This document shows, in pieces, positions 5,301-63,470 of a stretch of 64,000 bases of DNA. The stretch comes from Lama guanicoe (taxonomy: Eukaryota): positions 24,734-88,733 of the forward strand of contig MU053164.1 in the NCBI GenBank assembly GCA_013239625.1, read 5' to 3'. Positions within the stretch are counted from its first letter, which is position 1. Each line of letters starts with the position of its first letter. The translations under genes and the position numbers were made by a program. The notes beneath the pieces were generated by a model. It was given only the letters and a program-made list of their open reading frames with translations. It did not search any database and had not been told where the DNA came from.

Positions 5301-6238
5301 AGGCAACCCTGATCACTATTACAAACAACTAACTTATTATATGGTGATCACATACTCAGTGTATTTTAAATGAGAATGCTTTAAGAGGTTCAAGGTAGGA
5401 TATAAGTGTTAGATATGTAAGAAATGCCAATCAAGAATTCAAATGAGAGAAATTTTTCGTGAAAGAGATGGCGTTTGGCATGAGCAGGGACCACGTGTTA
5501 GGCTTTGAGGCCATCAGGACCCTACCTAGTACTGGGGACTGGTACTACCCAGCCATCAGTAGCCGTTAGTTGATTCCCCCTTATAAACAGGCATTTCCAA
5601 GAAGTATTCTGAATTTTAGTCTATTTTCTTTTGTGATTTAAGATGAAGCAACACTACCTCTAAAACTGTACCTGACAGTGGACTCACTGTTACAGTGAGC
5701 TTCAGAAATAAATATCGAGGCACTAGTGTGGCCCAGCTTCGTGAAAGCTGTCATCTAGTTTTAGTGAAAAATGATTAAGGTCCTAAAACTGCTTTTTGCC
5801 TTTCAGAAATGGCTTCACACACGTATTTGAAAATGGAATGTTAATACATAAGAAGCAGGCAGCAGGTTGACTCTTAGACTCCCCTTGTACTTGTTAGTTC
5901 ATTTTAGGGCGCTCTTAAGTATNNNNNNNNNNNNNNNNNNNNNNNNNNNNNNNNNNNNNNNNNNNNNNNNNNNNNNNNNNNNNNNNNNNNNNNNNNNNNN
6001 NNNNNNNNNNNNNNNNNNNNNNNNNNNNNNNNNNNNNNNNNNNNNNNNNNNNNNNNNNNNNNNNNNNNNNNNNNNNNNNNNNNNNNNNNNNNNNNNNNNN
6101 NNNNNNNNNNNNNNNNNNNNNNNNNNNNNNNNNNNNNNNNNNNNNNNNNNNNNNNNNNNNNNNNNNNNNNNNNNNNNNNNNNNNNNNNNNNNNNNNNNNN
6201 NNNNNNNNNNNNNNNNNNNNNNNNNNNNNNNNNNNNNN

Positions 6239-6933
6239 GCCCAAGGCGAGGTGGCTTAACAGGCGTGGGTGCCGGCGCAGCAGGGCCTTTACGGCCCTAA
6301 AAGGCCCCTCGCAGGCGCTGGACCTTCTGCACCCGGTGCGCCGCAGCCGCCGCGCCCTGGCCTCCGCGGGCTCCTCGTCGGAGCGCTCCTCGGCTTCGGC
6401 CTCGGGCTGCTCTGGGCCAGCTTCGGCCTGTTCCGCCGGGCCTGAGGGCTCCGACGCCTTCCGGAAGGCTCTGGCTGGGAGTTCTGCCTCTTCCTGGAAG
6501 AGCAGAACGCGGAGCTTCCCGCGCGCCACCAGCAGCCCGCGGTCGGCCTCCCGCCGCGGCCCCGGGCCGGCGCGGCGCCCGGCGCTCCTGGGCAGCACCC
6601 GCGCGCGCGCCCACGCGCTCCGCCCCGGCCCGCAGCCGCGCCGGCGTGCTGCTCGCGGTGTGGTGGCTGCGACTCAGCGCGCCCGGGCCACTCTGGATGC
6701 GGCTCACGGGGCCGGCCAGGCCCCCCTGCCGCTCGCGCGGCGCCTCCAGCATGGTGGCCAGCTTCCCAGCAGGGTCACCGCGGCGACCGTGTGCACCGGG
6801 CCCTCGGGCCCAGGCCCTGGCTCCAGCGCACTCTCCCCGATGACACCCGACCGTCCCGCTTGCTCTCCGCGCAGCCGCCGGCTGCGCTCTGGGCTGGGGC
6901 TGCCTTTCCCGGCTCCTCCCCAGCTCCGGCCCT
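6239..6933 (-). pseudogene. CAVIN3: Processed pseudogene of caveolae-associated protein 3 (CAVIN3/PRKCDBP/SRBC); 3' end lies in the assembly gap
   Basis: Minus-strand frames give [66 protein letters not shown] and GRKGPAAPAPTPVKPPRLG, matching recalled CAVIN3. No intron at LLF(K/Q)|EE. Start ATG is ATC (6841-6839); about 3 frameshifts; in-frame TAG at 6299-6297. Confidence 0.9.
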
Positions 6934-7269
6934 GAAGAACATTTTTTAAGCAACTTAATTAACCTTTGGTCTATGCTAACCACAGCAAAAAGAAGTTTGC
7001 AAGGTTGTGAAGCAACTAAAATTCTCTGACAGTCTTGTTGAATATATAAATTGATACAACCACTCTAGAAAATTATCTGGTAGTTTTTTATAAGATTAAA
7101 CCTACACCTACTTTGTGACCCAACAATTTTGCCGTGAGGTGTTTATCCAAGAAAAATGAAAACGTAGGTCATAAAAAGACTAGTACAAAGCTGTGATTTT
7201 TGTAGAAATTTGTAGAAAGTCTACATTTGGTCACCTGACCAAAGGTCTGTGGCGTTTGACCTGCTGCAG

Positions 7270-7431
7270 GGAAAGCCCGTCTGCTAGTGCTGACACACGT
7301 GCGTTTCTGTCATCGGTCGTGTGCTCCAGTAGGACCCTGCTACTTGATGGCCGGGTAGAACTCAGAAGAGGCCTGCAGAGTCAGGAGCATCTTTTCCTAT
7401 TCAATGACCTGTTCGTTGTGGCCACAATCAA
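7270..7431 (+). CDS. ARHGAP20: ARHGAP20 exon (start of PH domain), [10 protein letters not shown]...[15 protein letters not shown]
   Basis: ctgcag|G acceptor, AA|gtgagt donor; matches human DSPSASVDT...[15 protein letters not shown]. Confidence 0.93.
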
Positions 7432-10400
7432 GTGAGTATGCTCTATACACTCTCCCCTGGTTGTCATTATAAAATTGCATTTCCACTGACAAAGGCAACC
7501 TTTCTGTTCTTTGCTTACTATGAGACTATCTGGACTCTGTTACTATAGCTAATATCTGAAGTGAGTTTTATGTTTGGTTTGGTTTGGTTTTGAAAAGAGT
7601 GTTTCAGTTACTTATTCATTCAATAGGTGTTCATTTAGACCCCACTCTGTGCCATGTTCTCTGTAAATACAGGGGATGCAAAGAAGACTGTGATGGACAT
7701 GATCCCTGCTTTTGTATTTTTTATGTGTAGACATTATCTTCATTGTTACTTTTAGCAGTTTATTCTTTAAACACTTTTTAGAATCCTAAACGTTACAGTT
7801 TGGACTCCAGACATTTTCTCCCAAGACACTGAGGTAAGCCTCAATTGCCCAAATGTCCTTTCCCTTTCCTTTTATACACTGTGGGCCTCTGAATTCTTAT
7901 ACATCAACAAGGACTCCTTTCTCTGAGTTGTTGTGCAGAGGTAGAAATGAATACTGTGCTTAGGACACGTGATGTTGTAGAACTCAGCCTGATTGGCCAA
8001 CCGTTTTACATCACACCAGTCATTGTTACTCCATAATCAAGATGCTGTTCAATTGGTTTGTAAAACATTCACTCCGCCTAATTCCAGTCACCCAGCACTC
8101 TGGACTGAGTGTGTAGTGTCAGCGTGGTAGCCTGGGTCAGGTCCAGCACACTTTGCTGCGATAACACAGAACAGTGAGAGCCGACTGGCCAGCATCCTGT
8201 TTACTGGAGGCCTAGTCCACAGCTCTGCAGGTCTGCATGGCAAGAGGAATCAGCTGCCCACTATCTGAAGTGATTTCTTGGGGTCAGTAGAGTCTCTCTC
8301 TCAGTCTCTGCTTCCTTGATGCTTTCATTCTAATGTGTGGGGGCAGACATTACAAATTGTACTTAGTGTTGAGAAGAAAATAGAGTGCTGGTTGAAGTGA
8401 AATATGGGATATATGTTAGGTAGGTGTAGTCAAGGGGGAAAAAAATCAATGAAGATATTCAGATATTAGGAAGATGGGCAGAGGAGACAGCAGGTACAAA
8501 GGTGGTGGGGAAAGCTTTGACCTTTGGAGGAGTTAAAAGAAAGCCTGTCACTGGAGCATGATAAGCAGGGGAAGTAGGCAAGGATCAGCTTATCAGGACC
8601 TTTGGGGGCTGCTTTAATTGTCTGTTGTCATACAACAAATTATCCCAAAACACAACAGCTTATGAGTATGAATGTCTTTGTACATTTTCTCTGAGCCAAG
8701 AATCTGAAAGTGGCTTAGCTGGTCGTTCTGGCTCAGAGGCTCTCATGAGGTTGCAGTCAAACTGTTGACCATGGTGACAGTCATGTCAGAGCTTAAATGG
8801 AGCTAGAGAATCCCCTTCCCATCTCACTCAGGGGGGCTGGCAGGCCTCAGGTCCTCAGCGGCTGTTGGCCCAGGGCTGTAGGTCTTCTCCAGGTAGGTCT
8901 CCTCAAAGTGAAAGATCCAAGAACGTGAGGAAGAGAGTACATAAGGGAAAGACCACCCAAAACAGAAGCTGCAGTCTTATAACCTGTTTTGGCAGTGGCA
9001 TACCATCATTTCCAGTGTCTGCTGCTGGCCACAGAGACCAACCTTGGTGCAGTTGGGAGGGAACTAAACAAGGGTATGAATATCAGAAAACAGGCATCAT
9101 TGGGGACGATTTTGGAGGCCGGGTACCACAAGGGCTATGATGGGAGTTTGGACTTTATTCCAAAGGGTTTTAATTAGTTCATATTTTAAAAATATTGTTC
9201 CGGCTATGACAGATAATGGATTAGAGGGTTGGCAAGAGTAGAAGCAGGGAGACTCAACAGGAGGTTATTGTCCTAGACCTGATAAGAGATAGTGAGGGCC
9301 TTAACTGGGGAAATGGCAGTTACATGAAGGATACCGACATATTTGGAATATACTGTAGAGGTAACCAAAAGAATTCACTTTTCACACAACACTAAATGCC
9401 AATGCAGTTAACATCCAGCCTAGAAAACAGTGGTTGCAACTTGCTCCATCCCCCATTCTTATTGTTTATGAAACATCCTAAAAGGTAAGAGTCGTTTAAC
9501 AAATCCAGTCTCATCAAAGAGATTGTTAGTCACTAGAGAATAGTAAACACTTTTTTCTACTATCCACATTCTCACACCTAAGTTACACAATGTCATAGAT
9601 AAGACATGGTTGGGGAGGAGATCCAGACAGTGGAGTGGGAGGACGGTGAGCTCACCTACCCCCAGGAACATATCAAAAGTACAGCTACATGTGGAGCAAT
9701 TCTCACTGAAAAGCTGGAGACTGGCAGAAAGACTTTTCTACAACCAAGGCTGCAAAGAAAGATCTGCAAGAAGTCAGGTAGAAAGGCAGGAGAAACAATC
9801 AGGTCGGGGCCCCCACCCCTAGGAGGGGACACAGAAGATGGGGGTATCATGGGCTTGCAAATCTTACCTGGGGAACGAGTGATTTGAAACATATATTGGG
9901 CATCCTAGCCAATACCAAGAAGACAAGTCCCTTTGAAAACCAGTAGGAGGGCTGTAAGAAACCGAGAGTCCACTCATGAAGAATGTGCACACACTCTTGC
10001 TTACTCCTCAAACCAAGTGGAGGAAGCAGATTAAAACTGCCCAGGGCTCTGACCCAGTGCACACCCCGGCATCGTCTCTGACTAGCTCAACTCCCAACCA
10101 GGGTGTTGCCAAGAAGAGTGTGCACTTGGAGGACACAGAACCAGCTTAGACACAGCACTGCAATTGAATGAGCCAAGGACATTTATCACTGGCACTCATG
10201 TAGGTGACAGATTGGGAGCTGTCTGGAGCTCTGACTGGTATACTGGGGACTGCCCCAGTGTGCACCCCAGCTGCACCAGGTAGCCATGCCAAATTCCTCT
10301 TCATCACTGCTCCCCTCTGTGGCAAAGGTGCCACTGCTGGGAGAAGGAAGAGTACACATTTAGAGGGAACAGAACTAGCTCAGACCTGACCCTCAGGGTT

Positions 10401-13400
10401 TCTGTTCCAACACCTTTGGACCTGACCCTGGCCCCAGTAGGGTGGTGATGGCCACTGAGCATAGGAGAAGCTCCAGCTCACACCTGGCTCAGGGTGTAGC
10501 CACTCCATCTCCAGCCCTACCTCTCACCAAGGTGATAGGTGGCAGCGTATCCTGGGAGAAGACATGACCCACACTCAGTTAAGATCCAGCTCTCCCACCA
10601 AAGCCACTCAGAATGTGCAGACTTGCATAGGTATGCTCCCATACAAGGACACCCTTTTAATGAGATAAGTAAGTGTTTCACCTAATTTCATAGAGACAGA
10701 GAAAGTTAGACAAAATAAAAAGACATAGGAGTTTGTTTCAAACAAAAAGCAAACAAAAAACCCTAAAAAACAACAAATGAAACAGATAAAGAACATACCA
10801 GATAAAGAGTTCAAAGCATTAGTAGTCAAAATGCTGCCTGAACTTGGGAAAAGAATAGATAAAAACAGTGAGAATTTTGACAAAGAACTAGAAAATACAA
10901 AAAGCACCAGTCAGAGCTTGAGAATACAGTAACGGAAATGAAAAACATACTAGAAGGAGCTAATAGCCAGGTAGGTGATACAGATGACTGTATAAGTGAT
11001 CTTGAAGACAGGATAATGGAAATCACCCAATGAAAAAAGAAAAACAAATTAAAAAATAAGGACAGTTAGAGGGGACTATAGGACAACATGAAGAGTACTA
11101 ATACTCATATTATAGGATCCTAGAAGGAGAAGGGAGAGAGAAAGGGGCCAAAAATGTATTTGAGGAAATTATGGCTGAAAACTTCTCAAACTGAAGAAGG
11201 AGACAGATAACCAGGTACAAGAAGCACATGGGATACTTCCAAAACAAAATGATACCAAAGAGACCCACATCGAGACATGTCACATTAAAATGGCAAAAGT
11301 TAAAGAGAGCATTCTAAAGGCAGCAAGAGAAAAACAGAGTCACATTAAGGGAACCCCCTTAAGGCTATCAGCTGATTTTTCTGGAGAAACTTTGCAGACC
11401 ACAATAGAGTGACATGATATATTTAAAGTGCTGAGAGATAAAAACCTACAATCTAGGACACTCTACCAGCAAAGTTGCCACTCAGAATTAAAGGAGAGAT
11501 AAAGAACTTCTCAGACAAGCAAACTTAGAGTTCATCAAAACTAACAACCCTAAAACTTGTTAGAGAGTCTTCTCTAAGTAGAAAAGACAAGGCTACAACA
11601 AGAAGTAACAAGTTAGTGGAATGTATGTGTGTATATGCATGACTGGGACATTGTGCTGTACACCAGAAATTGACACATTGTAACTGACTGTACTTCAATT
11701 TTTAAAAGGAAGTAACAAGTTACAGAACAGTAAAAATCATACTTGTAAAGGAAAATACATAGTAAAGGCTGTGGATAATGACTTAAGTAAGATAGTATGA
11801 AGATTAAAAGATAAAAATTGTAAAAATCAACTACAACTAAAACAAACAGTTAAGGGATAAACATGAAGTTGTAAAATATGACATCAAAAAAAGAAAATGT
11901 GGGGGAAGGAAGAAAAAATGTAGATCTTTAGAATGTGTTTGAATTTAAATGACTATCAGTTTAAAACAAGTAGATACAGATCAACATATATAAACCCCAT
12001 GGTAACCACAAATCAAAAGCCTACAACAGATACACAAAAGCTAAGAAAAAAAGGAACACAAGCATTCTGCTAAAGAAAATCATTAAACCACAAAAAAAGA
12101 GACAGAAGAACTACAAAAACAACCAGAAAGCAAGCAACAAAAATGGCAGTAAGAGTGCATACCTATCAATCACTCTTTAAATGTCAATGGAAAAAATGCT
12201 GACATCAAAAAATAGAGGGTGGCTGATTTGGATTAAAAAACAAGACCCTTCTATATGCTGCCCACAAGAGACTCACTCCAGAGCTAAAGACACAGACAGC
12301 CTTAAAGTGGGGAGGAGGGTGTGGAAAAAGATATTTCATGCAAATAGAAAAGACAAAGCTAGAGTAGCAATACTCATATCAGACAAAGTAGATTTTAAAA
12401 CAAAAGCTGAACAAAGATGAAGAAGGGAATTAACGATAAGGGAGTTAGTATAAGAAGAGGATATTACACTCATTAACATATGTGTACCCAATACAGAAGC
12501 ACCTAAGTATATAAAGTAGACATTAGCAGACATAAAGGGAGAAACTGACAGTAGGTGACTTTAAGACCACATTTACAATGGGCAGATCATCCAGACAGAA
12601 AATCAGTGCAGGTGCTTTATAAGAATGGCAATAACCAGGGCTTTTTATAGATACACAATGGTTATGAGCATAATAAATAAGCTTGAGTCCACTCTGCTCA
12701 AGTTCAGATTCTATCTCTGCTAGTTAAGCGGTTTGACTTTTGACAGATTACTTTAACTCCCTATGACATTTCCTTATCTATAAAGTGTTTGAAGATTAAA
12801 CCAAATAATATGTGTTAAGTGTTTACAACAATGAATGGCAAATGGTAAGTTCAATAGATGCTGACCATTAGAATGGAAGTCATTCTTAATGCTTTCAGAC
12901 AGCACCTTGTTATTTGTATAAGGAAATGGATACTTTTGGCACTTTATTGATCTAGGGAAGGATTTTTTCCAGATCAATAGACACATAAAGTGCCCACATG
13001 GTATCTGAATTATCTAATATAAAGAGAGGTCTGCATCAAAAGACACAAAATGTATGAAAACAGATATGGAAACACACTTTTCCTTCCAAAAGTTTCATAG
13101 TGTCAGTTTTATGTTACCTAAATAGCTGCCATCAAGAAATAAATTTTTAAAAGAAAAAAAAATCTTCAGTCTGTTTCATTTAAAAAAATCTAATGATTCA
13201 TAGCGATAAAAAATATTGAAATGAAATATAGAATGAAGCCATTGTGCCACGAAGCACTTTACTGTTACACTTAAGTGGTGTGCCCTACAGGAAGCGTAGA
13301 TGAGGCTTTGAATCTAGACTGTCCTTCGTGTATATAGTTCCTGCAAAATCCCCTTTCATTTTATAAATCCTGCAGAAGAGTTTTAGTTTTAAATATCCCA

Positions 13401-16400: not shown

Positions 16401-19400
16401 AGGTCCTGAAAAGTAAGCAAAAATTAGCATATTTTGGAGAAGAAATGAACCTTGGAATGAGGCAGCAACTCTAGGTGAGTTTCCTGTTTTTAAGGCATTG
16501 GCTTGAGGGCAGGCTGCAGGCACATTGTGGTGCAGGAAAACCAAGCCGACAAAAAGCCGCAGTCTTTCTGGGCTCAAGAACCAAAGTACAGAGTCTGGGT
16601 CAGCCACCACCACAGGAACGTGAGGGGGAAATCTCAAAAAGGAGAGTATCAGAGAAGAGAAGCTCTAGAATTTTTGTTTAGACTGTGCCCCAGCCTCTGG
16701 CTGAAGGCTGAACCGCACATGCATGGCACAGACTTAAAGCAGTCTGGAACTAAGGCTGAAAAAATTGAACCGAGGTGCTGCTCAACACAGGTGAGAGAAA
16801 GTTTTCAGCTTGAGTCTAATAAAGTTAGTTGTTAAAACAAAAACATCAACAGTGTTTAGCAAATATAACAAAGCTCAGAGTCTCCAAAACAAAGCATTCC
16901 TAATGTCCAGAATGCAATCTAAAATTTCTTAACATATGAAAAACCTAGAGAGGAAAAGATAATAAATAAAAGCCAGCCCTAAGATAATTCATATGTTGGA
17001 ATTACCATAAAAGAACTTTAGGCGGCCCCGCCCCCGGCGCGGGCTCCCCCCCCAACCCTCCCCCGCCGGCCGGGAGGCTGGCGAGTAGCCAGTCGCTGCG
17101 CGCGCGGTGCTTTCTCGGCGCGCCTCGCACGGGCTCAGACGATGGACAGTCTTGGGCAGCAGCTGCGAAGGCTAGAGCCCAAGGAAGAGTGTGCCCAGGG
17201 GAGGTTCCCAGCTGCTTTCCCTCTGCCAAGTCGCCCTGCTTTTGCTTCTCAAGCCGCTCTCCAGGCCTCTGCTGTCTCCTACTCACAGCTGACCTGCCCG
17301 CTTTGAGCCGTTTTCTCCCAGTGGCAGAGATGGGCCCCTCGCCGGTCCTGTCAAAGGACAGTGACCAGCTTGGCCTCAGCCTGCTCTGACCCAGGCCTGC
17401 CGCTCTGGCTGTGCAATCCTGGGCAAGTTGCCGCTTCGCTCTGAGCTGCTTGCTGGGCGCAGGGCATCCCTACCCGAGGTGGTGGAGAGGACCCCGCTAA
17501 ATGGTGCCTAGAATAAGCTTGAGCAGGGTACGTGCTCAGTGAACGTAAAAACGCCACTCAGTGCTTGGCTTTGAAGTCCTGTAGCCAAATGAAGGATCAG
17601 TCTCAAGCGAAACTTATGCGAGCCCCACGGGCCTCCCTCTGACCTGTCGCTGAAGCACGCCCCTCGCCCCAGGCCCAGCATGCGCTTGTCGGTGCGGAGG
17701 GCACTGCTGGCAGCTGGCTTCGCCCTGGCCCCGGTGCTGGCGGTCCAGCTTGGGCAGCAGGTGCTGGAGTGCCGGGCGGTGCTGGGGGGCCCGCTGGGCC
17801 CCCGACGGACCATGCAGCCGGAGCAGGAGGACCTGGTGATGGTGGGCGCGGACCACGTGGAGTACCGCTACGGCGAGGCCGTGCTGCTTATCTTCGTGGG
17901 GGGCGTGCCCCGGAGCGGCACCACGCTGATGCGCGCCATGCTGGACACCAAGCACGGTGAGCCGGCCCGCGTCCTCTGCAACAAGGACCCCTTCACGCTC
18001 AAGTCGTCCGTCTACTTGTCGCTCCTGTTCCCCAACTCCAAATTCCTGCTGATGGTGCGGGACAGTCAGGCCTCCGTGCACTCCATGATCACCCGCAAGG
18101 TCACCATCGCCGGCTTCGACCTCAGCAGCTACTGCGACTGCCTCACCAAGAGGAACAAGGCCATCGAGGTGATGTAAGCCCAGTGCATGGAGGTGGGCAA
18201 GGACAAGTGCCTGCCCGTGTACTACGAGCGGCTGGGGCTGTACCCCCGGCGCTCCCTCAAGCGCATCCTCGACTTCCTCGGCATCGCCTGGAGTGACGCC
18301 GTCCTGCACCACGAGAACCTCATCGGCAAGCCCGGGGGCGTCTCCCTGTCCAAGACTGAGCGGTCCACAGACCAGGTCATCAAACCCGTGAGCCTGGAAG
18401 CTCTCTCCAAGTGGACCGGCCACATCCCCAGGGATGTGATTAGGGACATGGCCCAGGTCGCCCCCATGCTGGCTCGGCCCGGCTACGACCCCTATGCAAA
18501 CCCACCCAGCTACGGCAGTCCCGACCCCATTGTCGTCAACAACACACACAGGGTCTTGAAAGGGGACTGTAAAACACCAGCCAATCTGAAGGGCTATTTT
18601 CAGGTGAACCAGAACAGTACCTCCTCCCACATAGGAAACTCACGATTTCCGGATCTCTGCAAATGGCTTTGTTGCCGGAAGAGAAGAAACTGCATTCGAG
18701 TGGAAATCGGACCTCTAATCCAAGCATATTGCTTGCTGTTAATCGCCAAATCAGGACTGCTCGTGAGAAATGTATTTGCATATATTTGCAAAAAGCTGAA
18801 CATTGAAAACTTAACCTTAAAACACTCTATCTTAGGACACTCCGGGGTAGAGAAGCAACAGTGTGGAAGAGTTTGGCTTTTGAAACTTAAATATTTTATA
18901 TGTTTCCCCCTAGAGAACTTTTTCTTTTGAAGAAAGGGGTTTGCCATCCTCCTTAATTTGCAGGACCACCGTGGTGACTTTGTTTGCCAGGACAAGGCCC
19001 GCCACCTGTGCCTCTCCCGTTAACTCTTAACTTTTGAATTCAGAGAATCTATTTAAGAATTTAATATATGAGGCTTTCTTTGATTCCTCCTCAGTTCTAC
19101 TCAGTTTCACAGAGGAAAAAAATATATATTATTTGAATCAAAAGAAAAAAAAAAGAACTTTAAAGCAGCTCTTATGACTATGCTCAGTGGGTAAAGGGAG
19201 AAGCCAATTAAAATGAATGAAAAGATGGGAAAGCTAAGCAGAGAAATAGAAAATATTTGTAAAAGCCAAATGAAAAATCTAGATCTAAAGTTGTAATATC
19301 TTAAATTTTTAAAAATCCCCCCTGTAGCCTTAGTTGCAGAATGGAAATGAAAGAGAAATGAGTCAGTGAATTTGAAGGTACATTGATAGAAATTGTCCAA

Positions 19401-37400: not shown

Positions 37401-40400
37401 CTGTGTGTTGGTATGAAATGCTTTGTGCTGTAAGTTCAGTAAAGGGGGAGCCCCTTTTTCACCTTTGAAAATTTGGTTCCAGAATTCAAGCACATAGACC
37501 AGTGACATCCCCAAAATGGGGGGGGGAATAACCCAAGTGTTTGATGTTTCCTTACCTTATAAAATGCTGAGCCGTGATGCTGAGCATACTATAAAATAGG
37601 AACTATAGAAATAAGATTACATGAATTAAATTAGGTTTACTAATAATCTCACTTCTTCCTTAGATTCAGGTCAGAAGACATTTAAAAGAAGATCTGTCAT
37701 TAACTGGGCCTTCTGGCGGGGCTCGAGCACCCACCTGGACAACCAGCCCGTGTCACCAACATCTCCAAAGCTGGGACAGCTCTTCAGAGTGTCTTTGCCA
37801 GATATCTGTGAGAACGACAATCTACCCAAACCTCTCTTGGTAAGTCTCATTTTGGTCTGTAACACTTAACAGGAAAGGAGAGCTCTGGAGGGAAACTCTA
37901 CCCCAAATGGAAAAATTGTGAACACTCATGGCTTTGGCTGAGAACCTTTATTATTACTTCAAAGAATACAAATCTTGACTAAACTATTGCAGCATCGTAA
38001 GGCAGACGTGATGGGGAGAGATGGTCTCGTCTGCTGGTGGCAGGAAAGAGCAGCGTGAACCTGCTCAGATAAACTAGAGTCTGTCTGCTTTGTGGATGGA
38101 GAATGCACTTTATCCCACACATTCCTCTCACATCCTTTCTTGAACCCTGTGTTGTTCAGAACATGACTCTTTCAGTCACCTTAGCAGCAGGGACTAAAAC
38201 TCACACTTCTTATTAGTATTCTAAGTGTTTAGGCATGCAGATACATCCTCTGGCATTTAGTTACCTTTTGTATGTAGAACAGATCAGGTGAAAGCCACTG
38301 AGTGTGTATGGTCTTCAGTGAAGATAGTAAATGAACCCTGTCAAGCAGCAGTTATTGAGTGTCCAGTACCCTTCAGGCACCGTCCTGGATGCCTGGCACT
38401 TCATGCTCTGCTGTATGTCTGTAAGTACCAGACACAGTCTAGTCACTTTATTGCTGGTCCTTCACAACAGAGTTAGAAGGTAGTTATCACCATCGTCACT
38501 GTCACCATCACCATCACCATCTCCATCATTCCTACTTTACAAATTAAAGCCCCACTCCCCCCAAAAAACCCTCAAGTTTACTGAAAGTCACACACAGCAA
38601 GTCTGAGCTATAACTAGGACTCAGGTCCTGTGGGTTGCACGTCTCCGACACCCACTCTCTTCCTCCTCGGCAAGTGTAGGACATGCAGCTGGAAAGGAAG
38701 CAAAATAAAAGATCGGAATGGAATGGGACAGAGAAAGCTTCCGGGAAGTGATAATTTTGGAGGCTGATTTTAAAAGAAGGCAACACAGGAAGTAGGATGA
38801 AATGTAAAGTCGCATGAAAAGAAAGACAAGCAAGTGGAGGATGAGTTTGGCAATCACATTTCCATGTCTGGGGATAAGATTTCATGTTAAGAGAACAGTG
38901 GGCAAAGAATAGTGAGACAGGAGGGAGACAAGGTAACAGGTACCTTGAAGTGACTACTGGATCGCTGAAAAAGGACAGTCGCATGAAAGCAAGAGTTGAA
39001 ATGTAGCAAGAACAAATGGGAGAAAATAGATTTTGAGACACACACACACACACACACTAACTGGCTTTAATCCGCTGGCAGCCCGTCCAGCCCCAGCCCT
39101 TCAGTGCCTCCTGCCGGGCCGCCCCGGCCCCTGGCAGCCGGGGAGGGCAGCTGTGTGTTCTCTGGCTCCTTCTGCGTCAAGTGCCATTTTGATTATTGTT
39201 TCCTTTGCTTCCCCATAGGATATGCTTTTCTTCCTTAATCAGAAAGGACCCCTCACAAAAGGGATCTTCAGACAGTCGGCCAACATGAAATCCTGCAGAG
39301 AGCTGAAAGAGAAACTGAATTCCGCAGTTGAAGTACAGCTAGACTGTGAATCGGCTTTCGTGATAGCCTCTGTCTTAAAGGTGGGAACGCACACCTTTGG
39401 TCCCCCCAGTAGTGGAGCTCTGGGGGAAGACAGCTGGTCTCCCTCATTATAACGCTATCCCCATCTGCGAAGAACCATCATAGTTAGATTCTCACAGCCA
39501 ATTAGCTATGTGGTAAAAGTATTTGTAGCAGAAATACTTGTGGCAAAGATGTCTATGCAAATAGGTTTACTTTTAAATTATTTTAGAGCCTCAGCTATAG
39601 TTAGCTGGCCTTCCCTTGTCCCTCACTAACATTTGGCCATAGGACATACAGCGACATTTCAGTAATGACCCCCTGCTACGACTGTGACTGTGCTTGGCAT
39701 TGAGTGTATGCAGTGAAAGGCGAGGGTCTGGTCTGGTCCTGCCCTGAAGGAGCTCGTAGGTTCATGGAAGACATGCTTACCTCATCAACTGACTGCAGCA
39801 CCGAGGCCCAAGGCTTCCATGAAGTCACAGAAACACGACATGTACATCACAAGTTGTGTATCACCTTTGGTAAAGCACATATGTAAGGCTGCTATTTGAT
39901 TTTCCAGAAAGAATTAAAATTACTCCATTGCACACCTGTCTCCATGTTGTAAGCAGGAACTTGCAAGAGGGTGGTCAGCCATGGGTGCAGCGCTTAGACA
40001 TGGAATTGGGTTTTCTCTGCCTGAAGTTTCCTAAGGTGGAGATCAGACTTCACAAGCTTGGCTTGTTAGGACCATGCCAAAAGCAACAGAGAGTGCTGGC
40101 CTAGAAAGGAAAGGAACATAGGACCAGGACCAAAGTGTGTTTACTTTTAAGCTTTTTTGTAAACAAATGTCAAACAACAAACTCCCTTGGTCAGATCCTA
40201 CTTGTGTCATAGTCTGGTTTCACCACACCCGGCCCCACAAGTGCTCTCAGCAGGAGTCTTGAAGGCCGGGAAGGATAATGTACCAGGGACATGTTATTTA
40301 ATATACATTATGGATGAGGGTGCTGCCCCAGGCTCCCAGAGCCCAACCATAGCCTGGAATGCCTTCTCCCCTCTGATGAAGAATACAGGGAGAAACTCCA

Positions 40401-46400: not shown

Positions 46401-47880
46401 CTCCGTGTTAACCCACATTGACTCTGACCTCGAGCAGCCTGAGGCAGAAGGCGTTTTAACCTTGAGTGAGTTTGACTTAGACCATCCTAAAGATGAAGAT
46501 GTCCATGTGGAACAGCCCGGTGAGCCCGCGCCAGTGGCCATGGCAGCAGTGCACAGAAAGGCCTCACTGCAGGACCAGGCCAGTGCCCCCTCTGACACAA
46601 GCACCCCCAGCTACCTGTCCGCAGCTACAGAAGATGCTCCAAAAACCCCGATGCAACAGCGACACTGCTCGGAGCCCAGCATCGGCTACCTGGGTTCAAA
46701 GCTTTCCTTTCTTATGGCGTTTTATCAGAAAAGGATACGCAGGTCCAGCTATGATGCGATTCTCCTGAAAAAAGATGAGAACCATCTGAGTCAGAATCCA
46801 CCCCTCCAGGAAGAGGGTAAGACAGGTTTTAAAACGAGTTTAGTCACAGATACTGATGTCAAGAAAAATGCCACTGATAAAAATCATAAGGAGAAAAGCT
46901 TTTGTGATAGCGAAGGAAATCATGTAAAGCTTTTTCCTAAATCCAAGCCAGGGACCATTTCTTACAGCCGCCTGTCCTCACACGATCGTCCCAGGAACCA
47001 GCCCTTCACTGCGGACATGGCTGGGTACTCCCCACCACGCACAGCAGAGCCCTTCAAGGGCTCAAGGAGGCAGCGGCGCTGCTCAGAGCCCAGCACTGAT
47101 GACCAGCACTGCAAACTGACCTATCTCAGGGGACTTTATTCAAAAAAGCAGCAGCACAACGCGAGCTGTGACACCAGTCTCTTGCCCGGAGAGGAGGATA
47201 ATCTCAAGAGGCACAAGTCTTTGCAGATGGAGGGGCAAAAGCTTATCAGTCAGAGCTTGGTCATGGGGATCGAGGTTGGCAAGAGTGGTGCCGCAAACCA
47301 GAACACTGAGAAGGTCTTCCCCTCAACATTAAACATTTGCCCGAGGAGTAGCTGTTCCAGCTTGTCCTCCCCGGACACGTCCCCATCTGGCTCGCCAGTG
47401 AGCTCCCAAGACAGCGCTTTTCCTCAGATTTCTGAACAGTCGGTGTTTACACCCACTGAAACATCCTCTCCAGTAGATTGCACTTTTCAAGCTCAAGGAA
47501 AACAGGAAGAGCTTTCTTCTGACTTTAGCAGTTCCAGCCTCATTTCTGGAATTCCCAGTCCCTCATCAGGGCAGGCCAGCAGCCACCTGGCTCATACAAA
47601 AAAGGACAGCCTAGAGGGGCATACACAAATGCGTTCTATAACTCTTCACCCCAGCACATGGTTGAGAAATGGTATAGCCAGTTTGAAAAATTGGTCCCTC
47701 AAAAAGAAGGCAAGGGTACCGAGACCAGAAAACAATAAAACAGGTTCTCTAAAAGGACCCATGGAGCCACCTCCATTTGCTTCTGGCATTCCAGAAGCCA
47801 GCACACTGCAAGAGAGACAGACAGACATTCCCCAAAGGGCAACTGAAGGACTTGGAGCTGTGCAAACAGCCCAGTGCTGA
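7270..47880 (+). CDS. ARHGAP20: Rho GTPase-activating protein 20 (PH-RA-RhoGAP); 5'-partial spliced CDS, 13 exons in the window, C-terminus shortened by 81 aa
   Basis: Exons 7270-7431, 14383-14529, 21401-21442, 22344-22428, 25298-25375, 27534-27600, 30493-30681, 37664-37839, 39219-39380, 40945-41054, 43693-43882, 45055-45169, 46277-47880. All are AG/GT bounded and phase-compatible, joining into one open frame (3127 nt) collinear with recalled human ARHGAP20. Orthologue versus paralogue cannot be settled from this window. Confidence 0.93.
8612..9130 (-). mobile_element. MaLR (MLT1-type) solo LTR
   Basis: caacaaattatcccaaaac, gtggcttagctgg..ctggctcagaggctctcatgaggttgcagtc, ttttggaggccgggtaccaca. 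Confidence 0.7.
9605..12610 (+). mobile_element. L1 5' portion: 5' UTR, degenerate ORF1 and start of ORF2 endonuclease; 3'-truncated
   Basis: L1 5' start motif (gagctcacctacccccagg..ctacatgtggagcaattctcact), A-rich ORF1 relic, and the peptide [16 protein letters not shown]...[14 protein letters not shown] (12181-12420). Confidence 0.88.
11616..11708 (+). mobile_element. 93-bp 5'-truncated L1 3' end nested in the older L1
   Basis: tgtgctgtacaccagaaattgacacattgtaactgactgtacttcaa L1 terminus, flanked by 14-bp TSD GAAGTAACAAGTTA (11602-11615 and 11709-11722). Confidence 0.85.
14383..14529 (+). CDS. ARHGAP20: ARHGAP20 exon (PH domain), [20 protein letters not shown]...[11 protein letters not shown]
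   Basis: ctttctag|A acceptor, AG|gtgaga donor; strong peptide match. Confidence 0.93.
15790..16280 (+). mobile_element. L1MC-like 3' end fragment
   Basis: ctcaaaactgtcaaggtca, gagacatgataactaaatgcaatgtggtatcttggatggatcctagaacagaaaaaaggacatta, poly-A tail. Confidence 0.7.
16290..19430 (+). mobile_element. Old L1 5'/ORF1 fragment split by the TPST2 retrocopy (16290-17020 and 19163-19430)
   Basis: atgttggaattaccataaaagaacttta|aagcagctcttatgactatgctc is continuous across the insertion and resembles L1M ORF1. Confidence 0.6.
17021..19150 (+). pseudogene. TPST2: Processed pseudogene of tyrosylprotein sulfotransferase 2
   Basis: Intronless MRLSVRR...[12 protein letters not shown]...[10 protein letters not shown] (17680-18645). 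Premature TAA at 18175-18177, a 56-codon in-frame deletion, and the native stop changed to CGA. A-rich tail about 19140-19150; 12-bp TSD AAAAGAACTTTA at 17009-17020 and 19151-19162. Confidence 0.96.
21401..21442 (+). CDS. ARHGAP20: ARHGAP20 42-nt exon, [14 protein letters not shown]
   Basis: ttcattgcag|T acceptor, AG|gtattt donor; matches human [14 protein letters not shown]. Confidence 0.9.
22344..22428 (+). CDS. ARHGAP20: ARHGAP20 exon, [28 protein letters not shown]
   Basis: gattag|A acceptor, TGT|gtaagt donor; peptide match. Confidence 0.92.
25298..25375 (+). CDS. ARHGAP20: ARHGAP20 exon (RA domain), [26 protein letters not shown]
   Basis: Long polypyrimidine tract with cctacag|T acceptor, ACT|gtaagt donor. 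Confidence 0.92.
27534..27600 (+). CDS. ARHGAP20: ARHGAP20 exon (RA domain), [23 protein letters not shown]
   Basis: ctccaag|G acceptor, G|gtaagt donor; matches human [15 protein letters not shown]. Confidence 0.92.
28616..29132 (-). mobile_element. Young 5'-truncated L1 (3' end)
   Basis: Poly-T start, L1 3' UTR/ORF2-end motifs (gcatccatgttgctgcaaatggcatta, gagtagtattccattgt), and 14-bp TSD CCAGTTTATTTCTT (28602-28615 and 29133-29146). Confidence 0.92.
30493..30681 (+). CDS. ARHGAP20: ARHGAP20 exon (end of RA domain), [14 protein letters not shown]...[18 protein letters not shown]
   Basis: gtgtag|GA acceptor, G|gtgagt donor; peptide match. Confidence 0.93.
32302..33070 (-). mobile_element. 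hAT (Charlie1-like) DNA transposon fragment with transposase C-terminal relic
   Basis: Minus-strand peptide [26 protein letters not shown] (hAT dimerisation motif); end resembles the Charlie1/MER58 terminus (cagggctc..actttttctgtaaagggccagg). Confidence 0.8.
33080..34608 (-). mobile_element. Rearranged L1 fragments: ORF2 3' part (-), inverted ORF2 piece (+, about 33820-34025) and an L1 5' end (-)
   Basis: ataaatacccagcagtggaattgctg and gcagaagctttttagtttgatgta (minus); tttatatggaatcacaaaagacctagaattgcc (plus); ggaggtgagttcagggtctccctatgtcaccatcttg is the reverse complement of an L1 5' start. Confidence 0.75.
37215..37330. repeat. Polypyrimidine (CCT/CT-rich) low-complexity tract
   Basis: Directly visible C/T-rich run including cctcctcctcctcctc. 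Confidence 0.85.
37664..37839 (+). CDS. ARHGAP20: ARHGAP20 exon, [21 protein letters not shown]...[12 protein letters not shown]
   Basis: ccttag|AT acceptor, TTG|gtaagt donor; peptide match. Confidence 0.93.
39039..39057. repeat. (AC)n microsatellite
   Basis: Directly visible dinucleotide run. Confidence 0.85.
39219..39380 (+). CDS. ARHGAP20: ARHGAP20 exon (RhoGAP domain with intact arginine finger GIFR, AGA at 39270-39272)
   Basis: ccccatag|G acceptor, AAG|gtggga donor; [22 protein letters not shown]...VIASVLK. Confidence 0.95.
40945..41054 (+). CDS. ARHGAP20: ARHGAP20 exon (RhoGAP), [19 protein letters not shown]...EEKINAVQR
   Basis: gtaag|GAT acceptor, AG|gtaatt donor; K-DFLR RhoGAP motif across the junction. 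Confidence 0.93.
42552..43191 (-). mobile_element. ERV1-class solo LTR (640 bp)
   Basis: TG...CA termini (TGATAC...GTCTCA), 4-bp TSD GTTG at 42548-42551 and 43192-43195, and ERV1 LTR-like motif gggaaagaattcaagagcaagcc. Confidence 0.85.
43693..43882 (+). CDS. ARHGAP20: ARHGAP20 exon (RhoGAP), LLDQLPRAN...[19 protein letters not shown]...EFTKK
   Basis: ctttag|G acceptor, AAG|gtaatg donor; RhoGAP NxMxxxNLAxxxxP motif. Confidence 0.95.
45055..45169 (+). CDS. ARHGAP20: ARHGAP20 exon (end of RhoGAP), [24 protein letters not shown]...ENAS
   Basis: ttttgtacag|G acceptor, G|gtactg donor. Confidence 0.93.
46277..47880 (+). CDS. ARHGAP20: ARHGAP20 terminal coding exon (Ser-rich tail), ending early at ...VQTAQC-TGA
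   Basis: ttggcag|AT acceptor; lies within ORF 46261-47880; matches human [16 protein letters not shown]...[16 protein letters not shown]. Confidence 0.93.
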
Positions 47881-48633
47881 TGCTGAGGACACGCATTCAA
47901 CCAAAGACATTTAACCACAATCAGAATCTAATATCTGCAAGGACAGAAACCGGGCTAATAACATAAAGATAATAATTATTATGACCCCTGTGTATAGAAT
48001 AACCAAGACAGGTAGCATCAAGGTTATCACTGCTGATACTTAGGACAAAAAAAGAATCCTCTTTATTGAGACTATTTGGCAAAAAGTTGAGACTAAAAGA
48101 TTTTATCACCTGTTTGGGAGGACAGACATTCCCCAAAGGGCAGCTGAAGGACTTGGAGCTGTGCAAACAGCCCAGTGCTGCAGTCCTTACCCCAGCCAGG
48201 ACTCGGAGAAGGATGGTAGCTCTCCATCCAGCCTGGCGGGAGATGGACTTGAGCTTTGTATGAAGTCCCCTGAGGAAGGAGAGAAGGATGAGCAGTGTTC
48301 TGGTACTCTGCCTCTAGAAGGATCCTCACCCAGCTCTTTGACAGTGGATGACATGTCCAGCCCAGACTCAGGGCCAACAGTGGTTTCTGATGCTGAGGAC
48401 ACGCATGTAACCAAAGACATTTAACCACAATCAGAATCTAATATTTGCAAGGACAGAAACCGGGCTACTAATAACATAAAGATAATAATTACTATGACCC
48501 CTGTGTATAGAATAACCGAGACAGGTAGCATCGGGGTTATCACTGCTGATACTTAGGACAAAAAAAGAATCCTCTTTATTGAGACTATTTGGCAAAAAGT
48601 TGAGACTAAAAGATTTTATCACCTGTTTGGGAG
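47820..48633 (+). repeat. Tandem duplication of the ARHGAP20 stop-codon region (copy 1 47820-48120, copy 2 48121-48633)
   Basis: Both copies start gacagacattccccaaagggc and end atcacctgtttgggag. Copy 1 lacks the segment equivalent to 48181-48389; the copies also differ by 8 substitutions and a 3-nt indel. Confidence 0.95.
48179..48424 (+). pseudogene. ARHGAP20: Stranded ancestral ARHGAP20 C-terminal coding segment (CSPYPSQDSEK...DAEDTHVTKDI-stop), now downstream of the stop codon
   Basis: ORF 48161-48424 aligns to the recalled human C-terminus CSSSPFQDSE...SPDSGPTVVCDIEDRYLTKDI. Confidence 0.85.
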
Positions 48634-49458
48634 GCTTTTCCTTATTAGAGCATGGATTGATCCTGTCATGCATTTTAAGAGATCCGAGCAGAGGGCTAAA
48701 GAAGCATCATCTTCTCTAGAGGAAACATGCCTTAGATGACACTAAGAAGGCAAGGATATCAAAAGTGAAGAATAAAAACCATGGACAGAGTGGGAAGTCT
48801 GCAAAGAAACCATCCGCATTCCATGAAATGTTTTTAATAAGTAAGCAAGAAAAATACCACCAATCAAAGCATTAAGAAGGAAAGCATGTCAGATGATCAA
48901 GGAAATCACGTCAGACTTTTCCCTGAAACCAAGCGAGTGGCCAGTTCTGAGACATCTCATAGTCAATCACGTGCCCTCACAGAATCATTCCAGGTACCAG
49001 CCCATTAAGGCAGCTAGAGTGGAAAAAACTCGAGGGATTCGAGCCACAAGTACCAAGACATCATAGTTTTTGTTGGTCAATTTGTTTTTCCATGGGTGTT
49101 TCACTGCTCTACAGAGGCCCCCGGACATAGCTATGGGGAGAAAGAAGGAAATGGGTGCTCATTTCAGTGTTCTTTCCGGAGATGCCTGAGCCAGGAACAT
49201 TCTCCAGAAGTGCACTTTTCCCTCCTAGGAGGTGCCCTCCTGACAGCATTCGCTGTCTGGGTGAGGAGGAAGAGTCTGCAACAACAGTCATTCCTGTGTT
49301 ACATGGTCATCGTTGCCAACAGGTGATCAAAGCAGGACCCCACTTTGCGGAAATGTTTTTCTGCAGCCTTGTCTCTAGGATTAATCAGCCAAAAAAAATT
49401 GCTGATAAATTCTCCCTTTTCCGATGACCAATTCACAGCTAAGAGAGCAGTTTATAGA

Positions 49459-50034
49459 GCTGGCAGGTTATAAAGAGTCACAGAAAAGAAGAGCCACCAC
49501 AGTGGCACTCAGGCCTTCTTTCAGACAGTCCTCGACACTGGATTTTCTCACCTCCAGAACTTTTTACATCTTTTTCTCCCAAAATGATTCATGGTCTATA
49601 CCCCACTGGAATAAACCAATGGGGTATACACCACGGTGCGTGCCCCACTGGAACACACCAGTGGGGTATACACCATGGTGCGTGCCCCACTGGAATACAC
49701 CAAAGTGGTATACACCGAATGGGGTATAAACCATGGTGTATACCACATTGGTTTATTCCAGTGGAGCACACACAGTGGTGTAGACCCCATTGGTTTATTC
49801 CAGTGGGGCACACACCGTGGTGTTTACCCCATTGGTGTATTCCAGTGGGGCACACACCGTGGTGTTTACCCCATTGGTGTATTCCAGTGGGGTATAGACC
49901 ATGAATCATTTTGGGACAAAAAGATGTAAAAACTTCTGGAGGTGAGAAAATCCAGCATCGAATACTGTCTGAAAGAAGGCCTGACAGCCACTGTGGTGGC
50001 TCTTCTGTTCTGTGATTCTTTACAACCTGCCAGC
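49459..50034. repeat. 576-bp palindrome (inverted duplication) with an internal 42-bp minisatellite
   Basis: 49459-49600 is the reverse complement of 49893-50034 (11 mismatches in 142 bp, no indels). Repeat units start at 49601, 49643, 49685; inverted units end at 49892, 49850, 49808, 49766. Confidence 0.95.
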
Positions 50035-62470: not shown

Positions 62471-62869
62471 TGTAAGAGATCTATGTATTCTAAGAGATTC
62501 ACTTCTCTAGGATTTTTTATACTGTATTGTAAAGGTAATTTCACCCACCTGTTATCTTAGTCTATCGTGTACGTATCTGTCTCCACACCTGTAAGTGGGA
62601 ATAACACTATGTACCTTCAAAACCTGGCAAAAAATGGGTGCTCAGTTCATGTCACTGTACATTTCTGTCTCCACCATCAGATTGGTGCTCTCCCAGGGCA
62701 GGGACTGAATCTTAACTTGTGTAGCAACCAGGGCCCAGCTCTGTGCCAGCAAGGAGAGGTTTTTCAATACAGTTTGTTGACTGAGTAAATGACAGCGCCT
62801 CCCAGACGCAATCTCCAGGCTGCAATTCAAGGATCTGAGGGAGGGAACGAGGGGCTGAGGCAGTGAAGC

Positions 62870-63470
62870 GGGAGAAAGCACTTCCCTGCGGGGGGCCAGC
62901 AGGGTCCGGTGGTGGGGGAGAGCCTCCTCCCCCAGGCCTCTGGCGCGGGACCTCGGGAGTGGGGATGCGGGTAGGTGGGACCCGGCCAGGAGGCGGTAGC
63001 TTTTCCTCCTGAGCACTCGCTGCCCTGGTGGGCCGTGCGGAGCTGGCCAGCTGCTTTCTGTCCCTCTGCCACTCCCTTTATCCCCCCAAACGCTCTGCCC
63101 AGAGGAGGAGCAGATGGAGCAGCAGGAGGAGCAGGCCGAGCCGGAGAAGGAGGTCGCTAGCGTCGCGCCCGCGCGGCCGCCCGAGCCTCCCTTGGGCTCC
63201 CACTGCCCTGGTTCGGCCCGGCCGGACCCGGCCTCGCCGGCGCCGGCAGCCGGACGGGGGCGCCGCGGCCCCTCGCCGCCCGGGCGCTCGGCCACCCGGC
63301 TGCCGCGGCCGCCGCCCCTTCTGCCCGCAGAGCGGCCGCAGCCAGGCTGGGCAGCCCCGGGGCGCCCCGCCGCGGGCATCGCCCTCCCCGGGCAAACAGC
63401 CCTTCTCAGCCAGGGGTTCGCCACGCCCCCACGGAGCACTTCCAGGCTCGCAATTAGGGTCTAGTCCACC
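62870..63470. promoter_or_regulatory. CpG island with an exon-like acidic/Pro-rich ORF (63114-63464); gene not recognised
   Basis: Sharp GC/CpG-rich block; pyrimidine tract with cccag acceptor-like site at 63101-63102. Confidence 0.6.

What the first reader, a model, noticed from the sequence alone, without database searches (positions are those of the whole stretch)
6239..6933. Dead CAVIN3 retrocopy that gained GC instead of decaying: signature of GC-biased gene conversion
Seen: the copy is clearly non-coding (start lost, about 3 frameshifts, a stop, one RQGGLA repeat missing), yet it is extremely CpG-dense. Against recalled human and bovine CAVIN3, most replacements imply A/T to G/C changes: ETL>EAP, GSV>GPV, LGA>PGA, TTSNTLAQLLAK>[15 protein letters not shown]>DRG, KLH>KLR, FQK>FRK, PVES>PAEA. 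Established: methylated pseudogenes drift to AT through CpG deamination, as the nearby TPST2 copy appears to do (R>C, GR>SQ). Inference: this is a germline-unmethylated island and a long-lived recombination hotspot under gBGC. Both T>C and A>G occur on the sense strand, which argues against ADAR hyper-editing of the source mRNA.
Basis: partly seen in the sequence, partly recalled or inferred. Interest (0 to 1): 0.7.

Follow-up and report, generated by a model that had tools for sequence, protein, structure and literature searches.

The report
Dead CAVIN3 retrocopy driven GC-rich
A broken, intron-less copy of the CAVIN3 gene inside another gene's intron in a camelid has changed almost only from A/T to G/C over millions of years, the footprint expected where meiotic recombination keeps favouring G/C alleles, so it is a clear natural example of a known process.

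Summary
Confirmed. 6239-6933 (-) is a dead CAVIN3 retrocopy in an ARHGAP20 intron of a camelid. Against the dromedary parent protein, 39 of 196 codons differ: 32 A/T>G/C changes, 3 G/C>A/T, 3 G<>C, 0 A<>T, 2 ambiguous. The bias is strand-symmetric, includes transversions (12/142 vs 3/459 GC-neutral) and peaks centrally. An orthologous dromedary gene model shares 18 of these changes (18:0) and both lineages kept gaining; a sibling dromedary copy elsewhere shows no bias. Fourteen DNA runs hold 88-98% of its words, so assembly error and one-off RNA editing are very unlikely. Best reading: long-lived GC-biased gene conversion (gBGC) at a germline-unmethylated CpG island brought in by the insertion (about 0.72). 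Methylation and recombination are inferred, not measured. No parental DNA was obtained, so synonymous sites are untested. Corrections: the camel parent already reads EAL; the TPST2 copy is balanced (12:10), not AT-drifting. The scan noted the same pattern before on other DNA (POP7, ARHGDIA, SRSF2, PHETA1 copies; unchecked notes). New here: the sibling control and branch-by-branch timing.

The parts
6842..6933 (-). 5' UTR of the CAVIN3 mRNA retained in the retrocopy
   Evidence: Translations of this stretch resemble the N-terminal extensions of CAVIN3 models P0035 and P0074 (judged by eye); GC 0.75
6239..6841 (-). Dead CAVIN3 coding sequence without the intron; start lost, 3 frameshifts, 1 stop, 12-nt and 21-nt deletions; 32 W>S vs 3 S>W replacements
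6500..6699 (.). Peak of A/T>G/C change: 19 of 48 weak sites at codon positions 1-2 converted, against 14 of 85 in the rest of the copy
   Evidence: Fisher p = 0.006 (peak limits chosen after seeing the bins)
6934..6949 (-). 5' junction: TT/AAAAAA motif of the kind cut by L1 endonuclease (recalled consensus), likely start of the target-site duplication; no second copy visible in the window
5923..6238 (.). Assembly gap of 316 N that probably hides the end of the coding sequence, the 3' UTR, the poly(A) tail and the 3' target-site copy
   Evidence: content inferred from the dromedary model P0001, which runs on to the end of the coding region
7271..7432 (+). Nearest exon of the host gene ARHGAP20 or a close paralogue (name from my recall of the protein; the references fetched are unnamed); the retrocopy is antisense to it
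   Evidence: exons in order from 7271 to about 48420
17680..18620 (+). TPST2 retrocopy coding part, used as a same-window control (12 W>S : 10 S>W)

Best explanation
L1 machinery inserted a near full-length CAVIN3 cDNA, including its CpG-rich 5' part, antisense into an ARHGAP20 intron in an ancestral camelid (intron loss and junction shown; L1 inferred). The copy lost its coding function (shown). Its CpG-dense core stayed unmethylated in the germ line (inferred from retained CpGs) and became a site of repeated meiotic breaks and repair (inferred). Heteroduplex repair there favoured G/C alleles, so new A/T>G/C variants were fixed far above the neutral rate and G/C>A/T variants were held back. 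The process ran on several successive branches, before and after the split from the dromedary lineage, which fits a stable promoter-type, PRDM9-independent hotspot better than a short-lived PRDM9 one (inferred). I put gBGC of any kind at about 0.8 and this CpG-island form at about 0.72.
For: 32 W>S, 3 S>W, 3 S>S, 0 W>W, 2 ambiguous in 39 replaced of 196 codons; 33 of 133 weak sites vs 4 of 259 strong sites changed class, GC* 0.94 (bootstrap 0.87-0.99; CpG sites not masked). W>S transversions 12/142 vs GC-conservative 3/459, p = 5e-6; S>W transitions only 1/243 vs W>S transitions 20/132, p = 5e-9; A>G 12/82 vs T>C 8/50 (p = 0.81) and A>C 6/87 vs T>G 6/55 (p = 0.54), so no strand asymmetry. Branch tallies on in-frame codons: stem shared with the sibling copy 4 W>S: 1 S>W; shared with dromedary 18:0; window only 6:1; dromedary only 4:1 (plus 1 S>S, 2 ambiguous); sibling only 1:1 (plus 2 W>W, 1 S>S, 1 ambiguous). 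Controls in the window: TPST2 copy 12:10 (p = 0.0025 against this copy); 11 internal host exons 14:12 in 346 codons. Known process: dog CpG islands show raised W>S rates and stable hotspots (PMC4350167, passages); such hotspots are active in 39 of 52 mammals (PMC11161765, section 8); retrocopy-associated intronic islands are nearly unmethylated in human sperm (PMC4122923, passages).
Against: No methylation, recombination or polymorphism data were obtained, and no parental DNA: only amino-acid-changing sites could be scored, by nearest-codon parsimony. The 300 nt of flank on the visible side are AT-rich (0.31-0.34) with no sign of GC gain, so the hotspot must be narrow. Spill-over into the nearest host exon is not significant (3:0 vs 14:12, p = 0.25). 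W>S transitions are enriched where they create a CpG (14/61 vs 6/71, p = 0.028; transversions 7/75 vs 5/67, n.s.), which selection for CpG would also give. The sibling copy started with the same CpG-rich sequence and did not gain GC, so CpG-island sequence alone is not sufficient. CpG decay is not significantly lower than in the TPST2 copy (1 of 75 vs 6 of 90, p = 0.13). P0001 and P0079 are automatic gene models and may hold errors; their gaps may be invented introns.
Confidence: 0.72

Rival explanations
1. gBGC driven by PRDM9-directed hotspots: a series of PRDM9 alleles that bind GC-rich motifs hit this copy repeatedly, whatever its methylation.
For: Same substitution signature; the narrow central peak fits a motif-centred hotspot; the bias is strongest on one branch (18:0) and weaker later in dromedary.
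Against: The bias appears on four branches spanning more than the split from the dromedary lineage (11-25 million years if this is the Old World/New World split, PMC4884201 passages), whereas PRDM9-type episodes are mostly limited to one branch (PMC12290510, passages). PRDM9 status in camelids was not found in print.
Confidence: 0.09
2. Selection for a GC/CpG-rich regulatory element: the copy became an intronic promoter or imprinted island acting on ARHGAP20, as PPP1R26P1 does in human RB1.
For: Same layout as the RB1 case: antisense, intronic, dead reading frame, island kept while other copies fare differently (PMC2791201 passages; PMC3839921 discussion). CpG-creating transitions are enriched.
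Against: 11 of 32 W>S changes create no CpG, and their rate (11/138) still far exceeds the GC-conservative rate (3/459). A quarter of weak sites changed and four further deletions or frameshifts were tolerated, which is not how a constrained element usually evolves. No consensus splice donor was found on the host strand between the copy and the next exon with a strict pattern. The two explanations can both hold.
Confidence: 0.1
3. A local mutational bias towards G/C (error-prone repair or replication at a GC-rich structure) with no fixation bias.
For: Polymorphism frequencies were not available, so mutation and fixation bias are not separated directly.
Against: S>W transitions are depleted (1/243) relative to GC-conservative transversions (3/459), which a raised W>S mutation rate alone does not predict. 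The sibling copy, with the same starting sequence, shows no bias.
Confidence: 0.06
4. A one-off event at insertion (ADAR hyper-editing or reverse-transcription errors), or a sequencing or assembly artefact beside a gap.
Against: 14 of 24 listed runs, from 7 studies and 4 organism labels, hold 0.88-0.98 of the 31-letter words of 6243-7450; one is flagged as a possible source of this DNA. An independent dromedary model shares 18 W>S changes that the sibling lacks or does not cover, plus 3 W>S stem changes. T>C, T>G and A>C changes, and changes private to each lineage, cannot come from one round of A-to-I editing.
Confidence: 0.02

Closest known systems
PRDM9-independent ('default') recombination hotspots at germline-hypomethylated CpG islands with gBGC: dog (Berglund et al., PMC4350167, passages read) and 52 placental mammals (Joseph et al. 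2024, PMC11161765, passages and section 8 read)
   Same: High equilibrium GC, raised W>S and lowered S>W rates, on a CpG island, stable over long times.
   Different: Those hotspots are mostly old islands conserved in place; this island arrived by retroposition in dead sequence. Camelid names do not occur in the text or four supplementary text files of PMC11161765 (figures not searchable). Recombination and methylation are not measured here.
PPP1R26P1 (KIAA0649 retrocopy) CpG85 in RB1 intron 2 (PMC2791201 passages; PMC3839921 passages and discussion) and other retrocopy-derived intronic islands (PMC4122923 passages)
   Same: Dead retrocopy, antisense in an intron, CpG island kept, with a fate that differs between copies of the same gene.
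   Different: There the island is kept and is an imprinted promoter; the passages I read do not invoke gene conversion (term absent from PMC3839921 and PMC4122923). Here a net W>S gain is shown and no promoter or imprint is.
Episodic exon-scale gBGC in coding sequence (PMC12290510, passages)
   Same: A cluster of W>S changes within a few hundred bases, many changing amino acids.
   Different: Most such episodes hit one branch; this one spans several, in sequence free of protein constraint.

Membership tests
L1-mediated processed pseudogene | Intron removed relative to the parent gene | tested here: met
   LLF-QEE is contiguous at 6505-6488, where intron-read-through CAVIN3 products diverge after LLFK (P0002, P0004)
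L1-mediated processed pseudogene | Reading frame disabled | tested here: met
   Start lost, 3 frameshifts, 1 stop
L1-mediated processed pseudogene | Poly(A) tail and target-site duplication | tested here: inconclusive
   5' junction has a TT/AAAAAA motif; the 3' end lies in the N gap and no second copy of the junction is visible
gBGC tract | W>S excess over S>W per available site | tested here: met
   33/133 vs 4/259; GC* 0.94, amino-acid-changing sites only
gBGC tract | GC-conservative changes not similarly raised | tested here: met
   3/459 vs 12/142 W>S transversions
gBGC tract | Strand symmetry | tested here: met
   A>G vs T>C p = 0.81; A>C vs T>G p = 0.54; small counts
gBGC tract | Same bias at synonymous and non-coding sites | not tested
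   No parental or orthologous DNA was obtained
gBGC tract | Fixation bias: derived G/C alleles at higher frequency in populations | not tested
   No population reads could be laid on the copy
PRDM9-independent CpG-island hotspot | Lies on a CpG island | tested here: met
   695 nt, GC 0.77, CpG o/e 0.89
PRDM9-independent CpG-island hotspot | Unmethylated in the germ line | tested here: inconclusive
   Indirect only: 1 CpG transition in 75 amino-acid-changing opportunities; not significantly below the TPST2 copy
PRDM9-independent CpG-island hotspot | Persistence across lineages | tested here: met
   W>S excess on stem, shared and both terminal branches; terminal counts are small
PRDM9-independent CpG-island hotspot | Meiotic breaks or crossovers mapped there, independent of PRDM9 | not testable with these tools
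   Needs DMC1 or linkage maps
Imprinted intronic retrocopy promoter (RB1 type) | Parent-of-origin methylation and an alternative host transcript | not testable with these tools
   Only a strict splice-donor scan was run, with no hit

The most novel reading that the evidence does not exclude
In camelids, retrocopies that carry a gene's 5' CpG island can found new PRDM9-independent recombination hotspots that last more than ten million years, and whether they do depends on the landing site. This copy and its sibling form a natural transplant experiment: same starting island, one hot and one cold. The sibling may even be a second-hand copy that froze an early stage of this one, since the changes they share are already 4:1 towards G/C.
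Probability: 0.35. Interest if true: 0.7.

Novelty: new variant of a known kind. Interest (0 to 1): 0.48.

Why it matters
Whether CpG islands attract recombination or recombination builds CpG islands is hard to separate, because old islands mix selection with gene conversion (the two options are set out in PMC4350167). A dead, datable retrocopy with a known starting sequence and a sibling at another locus removes protein selection and gives a direct test. It also shows how strong the effect can be: about a quarter of scorable A/T sites converted, about 40% at the centre. A practical point: two of the three proteins named dromedary 'CAVIN3' in the search results (P0001, P0079) are gene models on dead copies.

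Tried and rejected
No whole genome is held for this window. Cluster member lists could not be obtained, so no second camelid parent protein or other camelid copy was seen. GC gain in the nearest host exon: 3 W>S: 0 S>W in 44 scored of 54 codons, not different from other exons; the last exon gives 66:37 but against one unnamed reference and unpolarised. The stop-free frame across the copy on the plus strand is expected by chance: 37% of 2000 base shuffles have a fully open frame. No strict splice donor on the host strand. Literature searches for a retrocopy-seeded gBGC hotspot or for camelid gBGC/PRDM9 (search listings only) showed no such report by title or abstract start; most subscription papers and bioRxiv supplements are outside the library. 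Look-ups of earlier findings near the locus, in relatives and by the parent protein gave nothing. Three codons were dropped before the count (two beside deletions, one variable among mammals). In one search, 12 differing TPST2 codons were skipped as variable or beside an indel.

Full report
What is there. The stretch 6239-6933 on the minus strand is an intron-less copy of CAVIN3. A frameshift-aware alignment to CAVIN3 proteins gives about 90 nt of 5' UTR and 213 codons of reading frame (peccary numbering) before an N gap at 5923-6238. The start codon reads ATC, there are frameshifts at 6766, 6584 and 6331, a stop at 6299, a 21-nt loss of one RQGGLA repeat and a 12-nt deletion near 6805. The copy has GC 0.77 and CpG o/e 0.89, while the next 300 nt of flank have GC 0.31-0.34. 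It lies antisense in an intron of a gene whose exons run in order from 7271 to about 48420 and match an unnamed 1190-residue protein; I recognise this as ARHGAP20 or a close paralogue from recall, not from a call. The 5' junction carries a TT/AAAAAA motif typical of L1 insertion (recalled consensus); the 3' end is in the gap.

Which animal, and which relatives. The best protein hit, P0001, is named dromedary CAVIN3 but is a gene model on the orthologous dead copy: it begins in the flank just outside the insertion, reads the same off-frame UTR, has the same 21-nt loss and the same last frameshift, and 196 of 223 aligned codons are identical to the window. A second search gave the real dromedary parent, P0021, and a third dromedary model, P0079, on a different contig. 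P0079 is a sibling dead copy: it shares five replacements and the last frameshift with this copy but keeps the 21-nt repeat and most parental residues. The window is therefore camelid. It is probably a New World camelid, since four organism labels hold 0.88-0.98 of its words and it differs from the dromedary copy, but that is inference. The Old World/New World split is dated at 11-25 million years, and dromedary/Bactrian at 5-8 (PMC4884201, passages).

The substitution pattern. No parental DNA was obtained, so I scored amino-acid-changing sites only, taking for each differing codon the nearest codon of the parent residue (dromedary P0021, with peccary P0033 over a stretch that P0021 mis-models; three codons dropped). 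Of 196 codons, 39 differ: 32 W>S changes, 3 S>W, 3 S>S, 0 W>W and 2 ambiguous. With no mutational bias at all, 34% of W/S changes would be W>S; the observed 32 of 35 has P = 3e-12. At codon positions 1-2, 33 of 133 weak sites but 4 of 259 strong sites changed class, giving an equilibrium GC of 0.94 (0.87-0.99) and B of 3.2-3.7 by the formula of PMC11161765 with an assumed mutational equilibrium of 0.35-0.40. The changes are on the copy's branch: at 30 of 31 W>S codons the parent residue is present in at least 90% of 23 mammals. W>S transversions run at 12/142 against 3/459 for GC-conservative ones, S>W transitions are only 1/243, and the two strands behave alike. Conversion peaks at 6500-6699 (19 of 48 weak sites vs 14 of 85 elsewhere) and falls to 0 of 6 and 0 of 8 in the outermost bins.

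Timing and controls. On in-frame codons, the stem shared with the sibling has 4 W>S: 1 S>W, the branch shared with dromedary 18:0, the window lineage 6:1 (one more W>S lies after the last frameshift), and the dromedary lineage 4:1 with three other changes. The sibling's own six in-frame changes include only one W>S. A tally by eye that includes the shifted frame gives 23 W>S of 26 changes for this copy against 4 of 11 for the sibling (p = 0.003). The TPST2 copy 11 kb away gives 12:10 in 275 codons (p = 0.0025 against this copy; parents were non-camelid, so some changes may belong to the camel parent), and 11 internal host exons give 14:12. The bias is thus local to this copy, depends on the locus, and recurred on successive branches.

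Artefact and editing. Fourteen of 24 listed runs, from seven studies, hold 0.88-0.98 of the sampled words of 6243-7450; one is flagged as a possible source. A-to-I editing of the source RNA cannot give the T>C, T>G and A>C changes or the lineage-specific ones.

Mechanism. Raised W>S, lowered S>W, baseline GC-conservative rates, strand symmetry and a narrow peak are what gBGC predicts. Persistence over several branches on a CpG island fits the PRDM9-independent hotspots described in dogs and many other mammals (PMC4350167 passages; PMC11161765 section 8). Retrotransposition is known to create CpG islands, inserted CpG-rich markers were hypomethylated in mouse testis (PMC4509998 passages), and retrocopy-associated intronic islands are nearly unmethylated in human sperm (PMC4122923 passages). 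Shown here: the copy, its death, the bias, its timing and its dependence on locus. Inferred: germline hypomethylation, recombination, independence from PRDM9.

What speaks against, or is open. The visible flank shows no GC gain. The nearest host exon shows 3:0, which is not significant. CpG-creating transitions are enriched (14/61 vs 6/71, p = 0.028), which gBGC allows but selection for an island also predicts. The layout matches the imprinted PPP1R26P1 island in RB1, so a regulatory role cannot be excluded; a strict scan found no splice donor towards the next host exon. CpG loss is not significantly lower than in the TPST2 copy. The sibling shows that island sequence alone is not enough. The dromedary comparisons rest on automatic gene models.

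Novelty. Each ingredient is known. In six searches (listings only) I saw no paper describing a retrocopy that founded a long-lived gBGC hotspot, nor camelid data; camelid names are absent from the text and four supplementary text files of PMC11161765, and figures, subscription papers and bioRxiv supplements could not be seen. Earlier notes of this scan report the same pattern for POP7, ARHGDIA, SRSF2 and PHETA1 retrocopies on other DNA, one stated to be camelid. They are unchecked, I read them after forming and recording my reading, and they are not counted as support, but they suggest a recurring class rather than a one-off. I rate it a new variant of a known kind, interest 0.48.

Noticed in passing
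P0001, P0079: Two database proteins named dromedary caveolae-associated protein 3 are gene models on dead retrocopies; only P0021 is the parent, and it is mis-modelled over about 18 residues.
   Followed up: yes
window 17010-19160 (+): TPST2 retrocopy with a long 5' leader, a 168-nt in-frame deletion at 17947, a stop at 18175 and an A-rich tail near 19140; still CpG-rich (o/e 0.66; 0.98 in 17010-17170) and not AT-drifting overall.
   Followed up: partly
window 47820-48634: The host's last exon is interrupted by near-identical duplicated blocks (60, 105 and 167 nt, 89-98% identical) that put a stop at 47880 while the true C-terminus follows at 48125-48421; a local duplication or a mis-assembly.
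   Followed up: partly
window 7271-7432 and 37663-37857: Two host exons each lack one codon relative to the reference protein, and the gene is only about 68-93% identical to it per exon, so it may be a fast-evolving paralogue.
   Followed up: partly
window 49459-50034: A 42-nt tandem array arranged as a 258-nt inverted repeat (91% complementary, 60-nt spacer) just downstream of the host's last exon.
   Followed up: no
window 62840-63460: A third CpG island (GC 0.75, o/e 0.72), probably the promoter or first exon of a neighbouring gene; not identified.
   Followed up: no
window 9600-12620: Truncated L1-like element on the plus strand in the same host intron region (recognised by eye).
   Followed up: no
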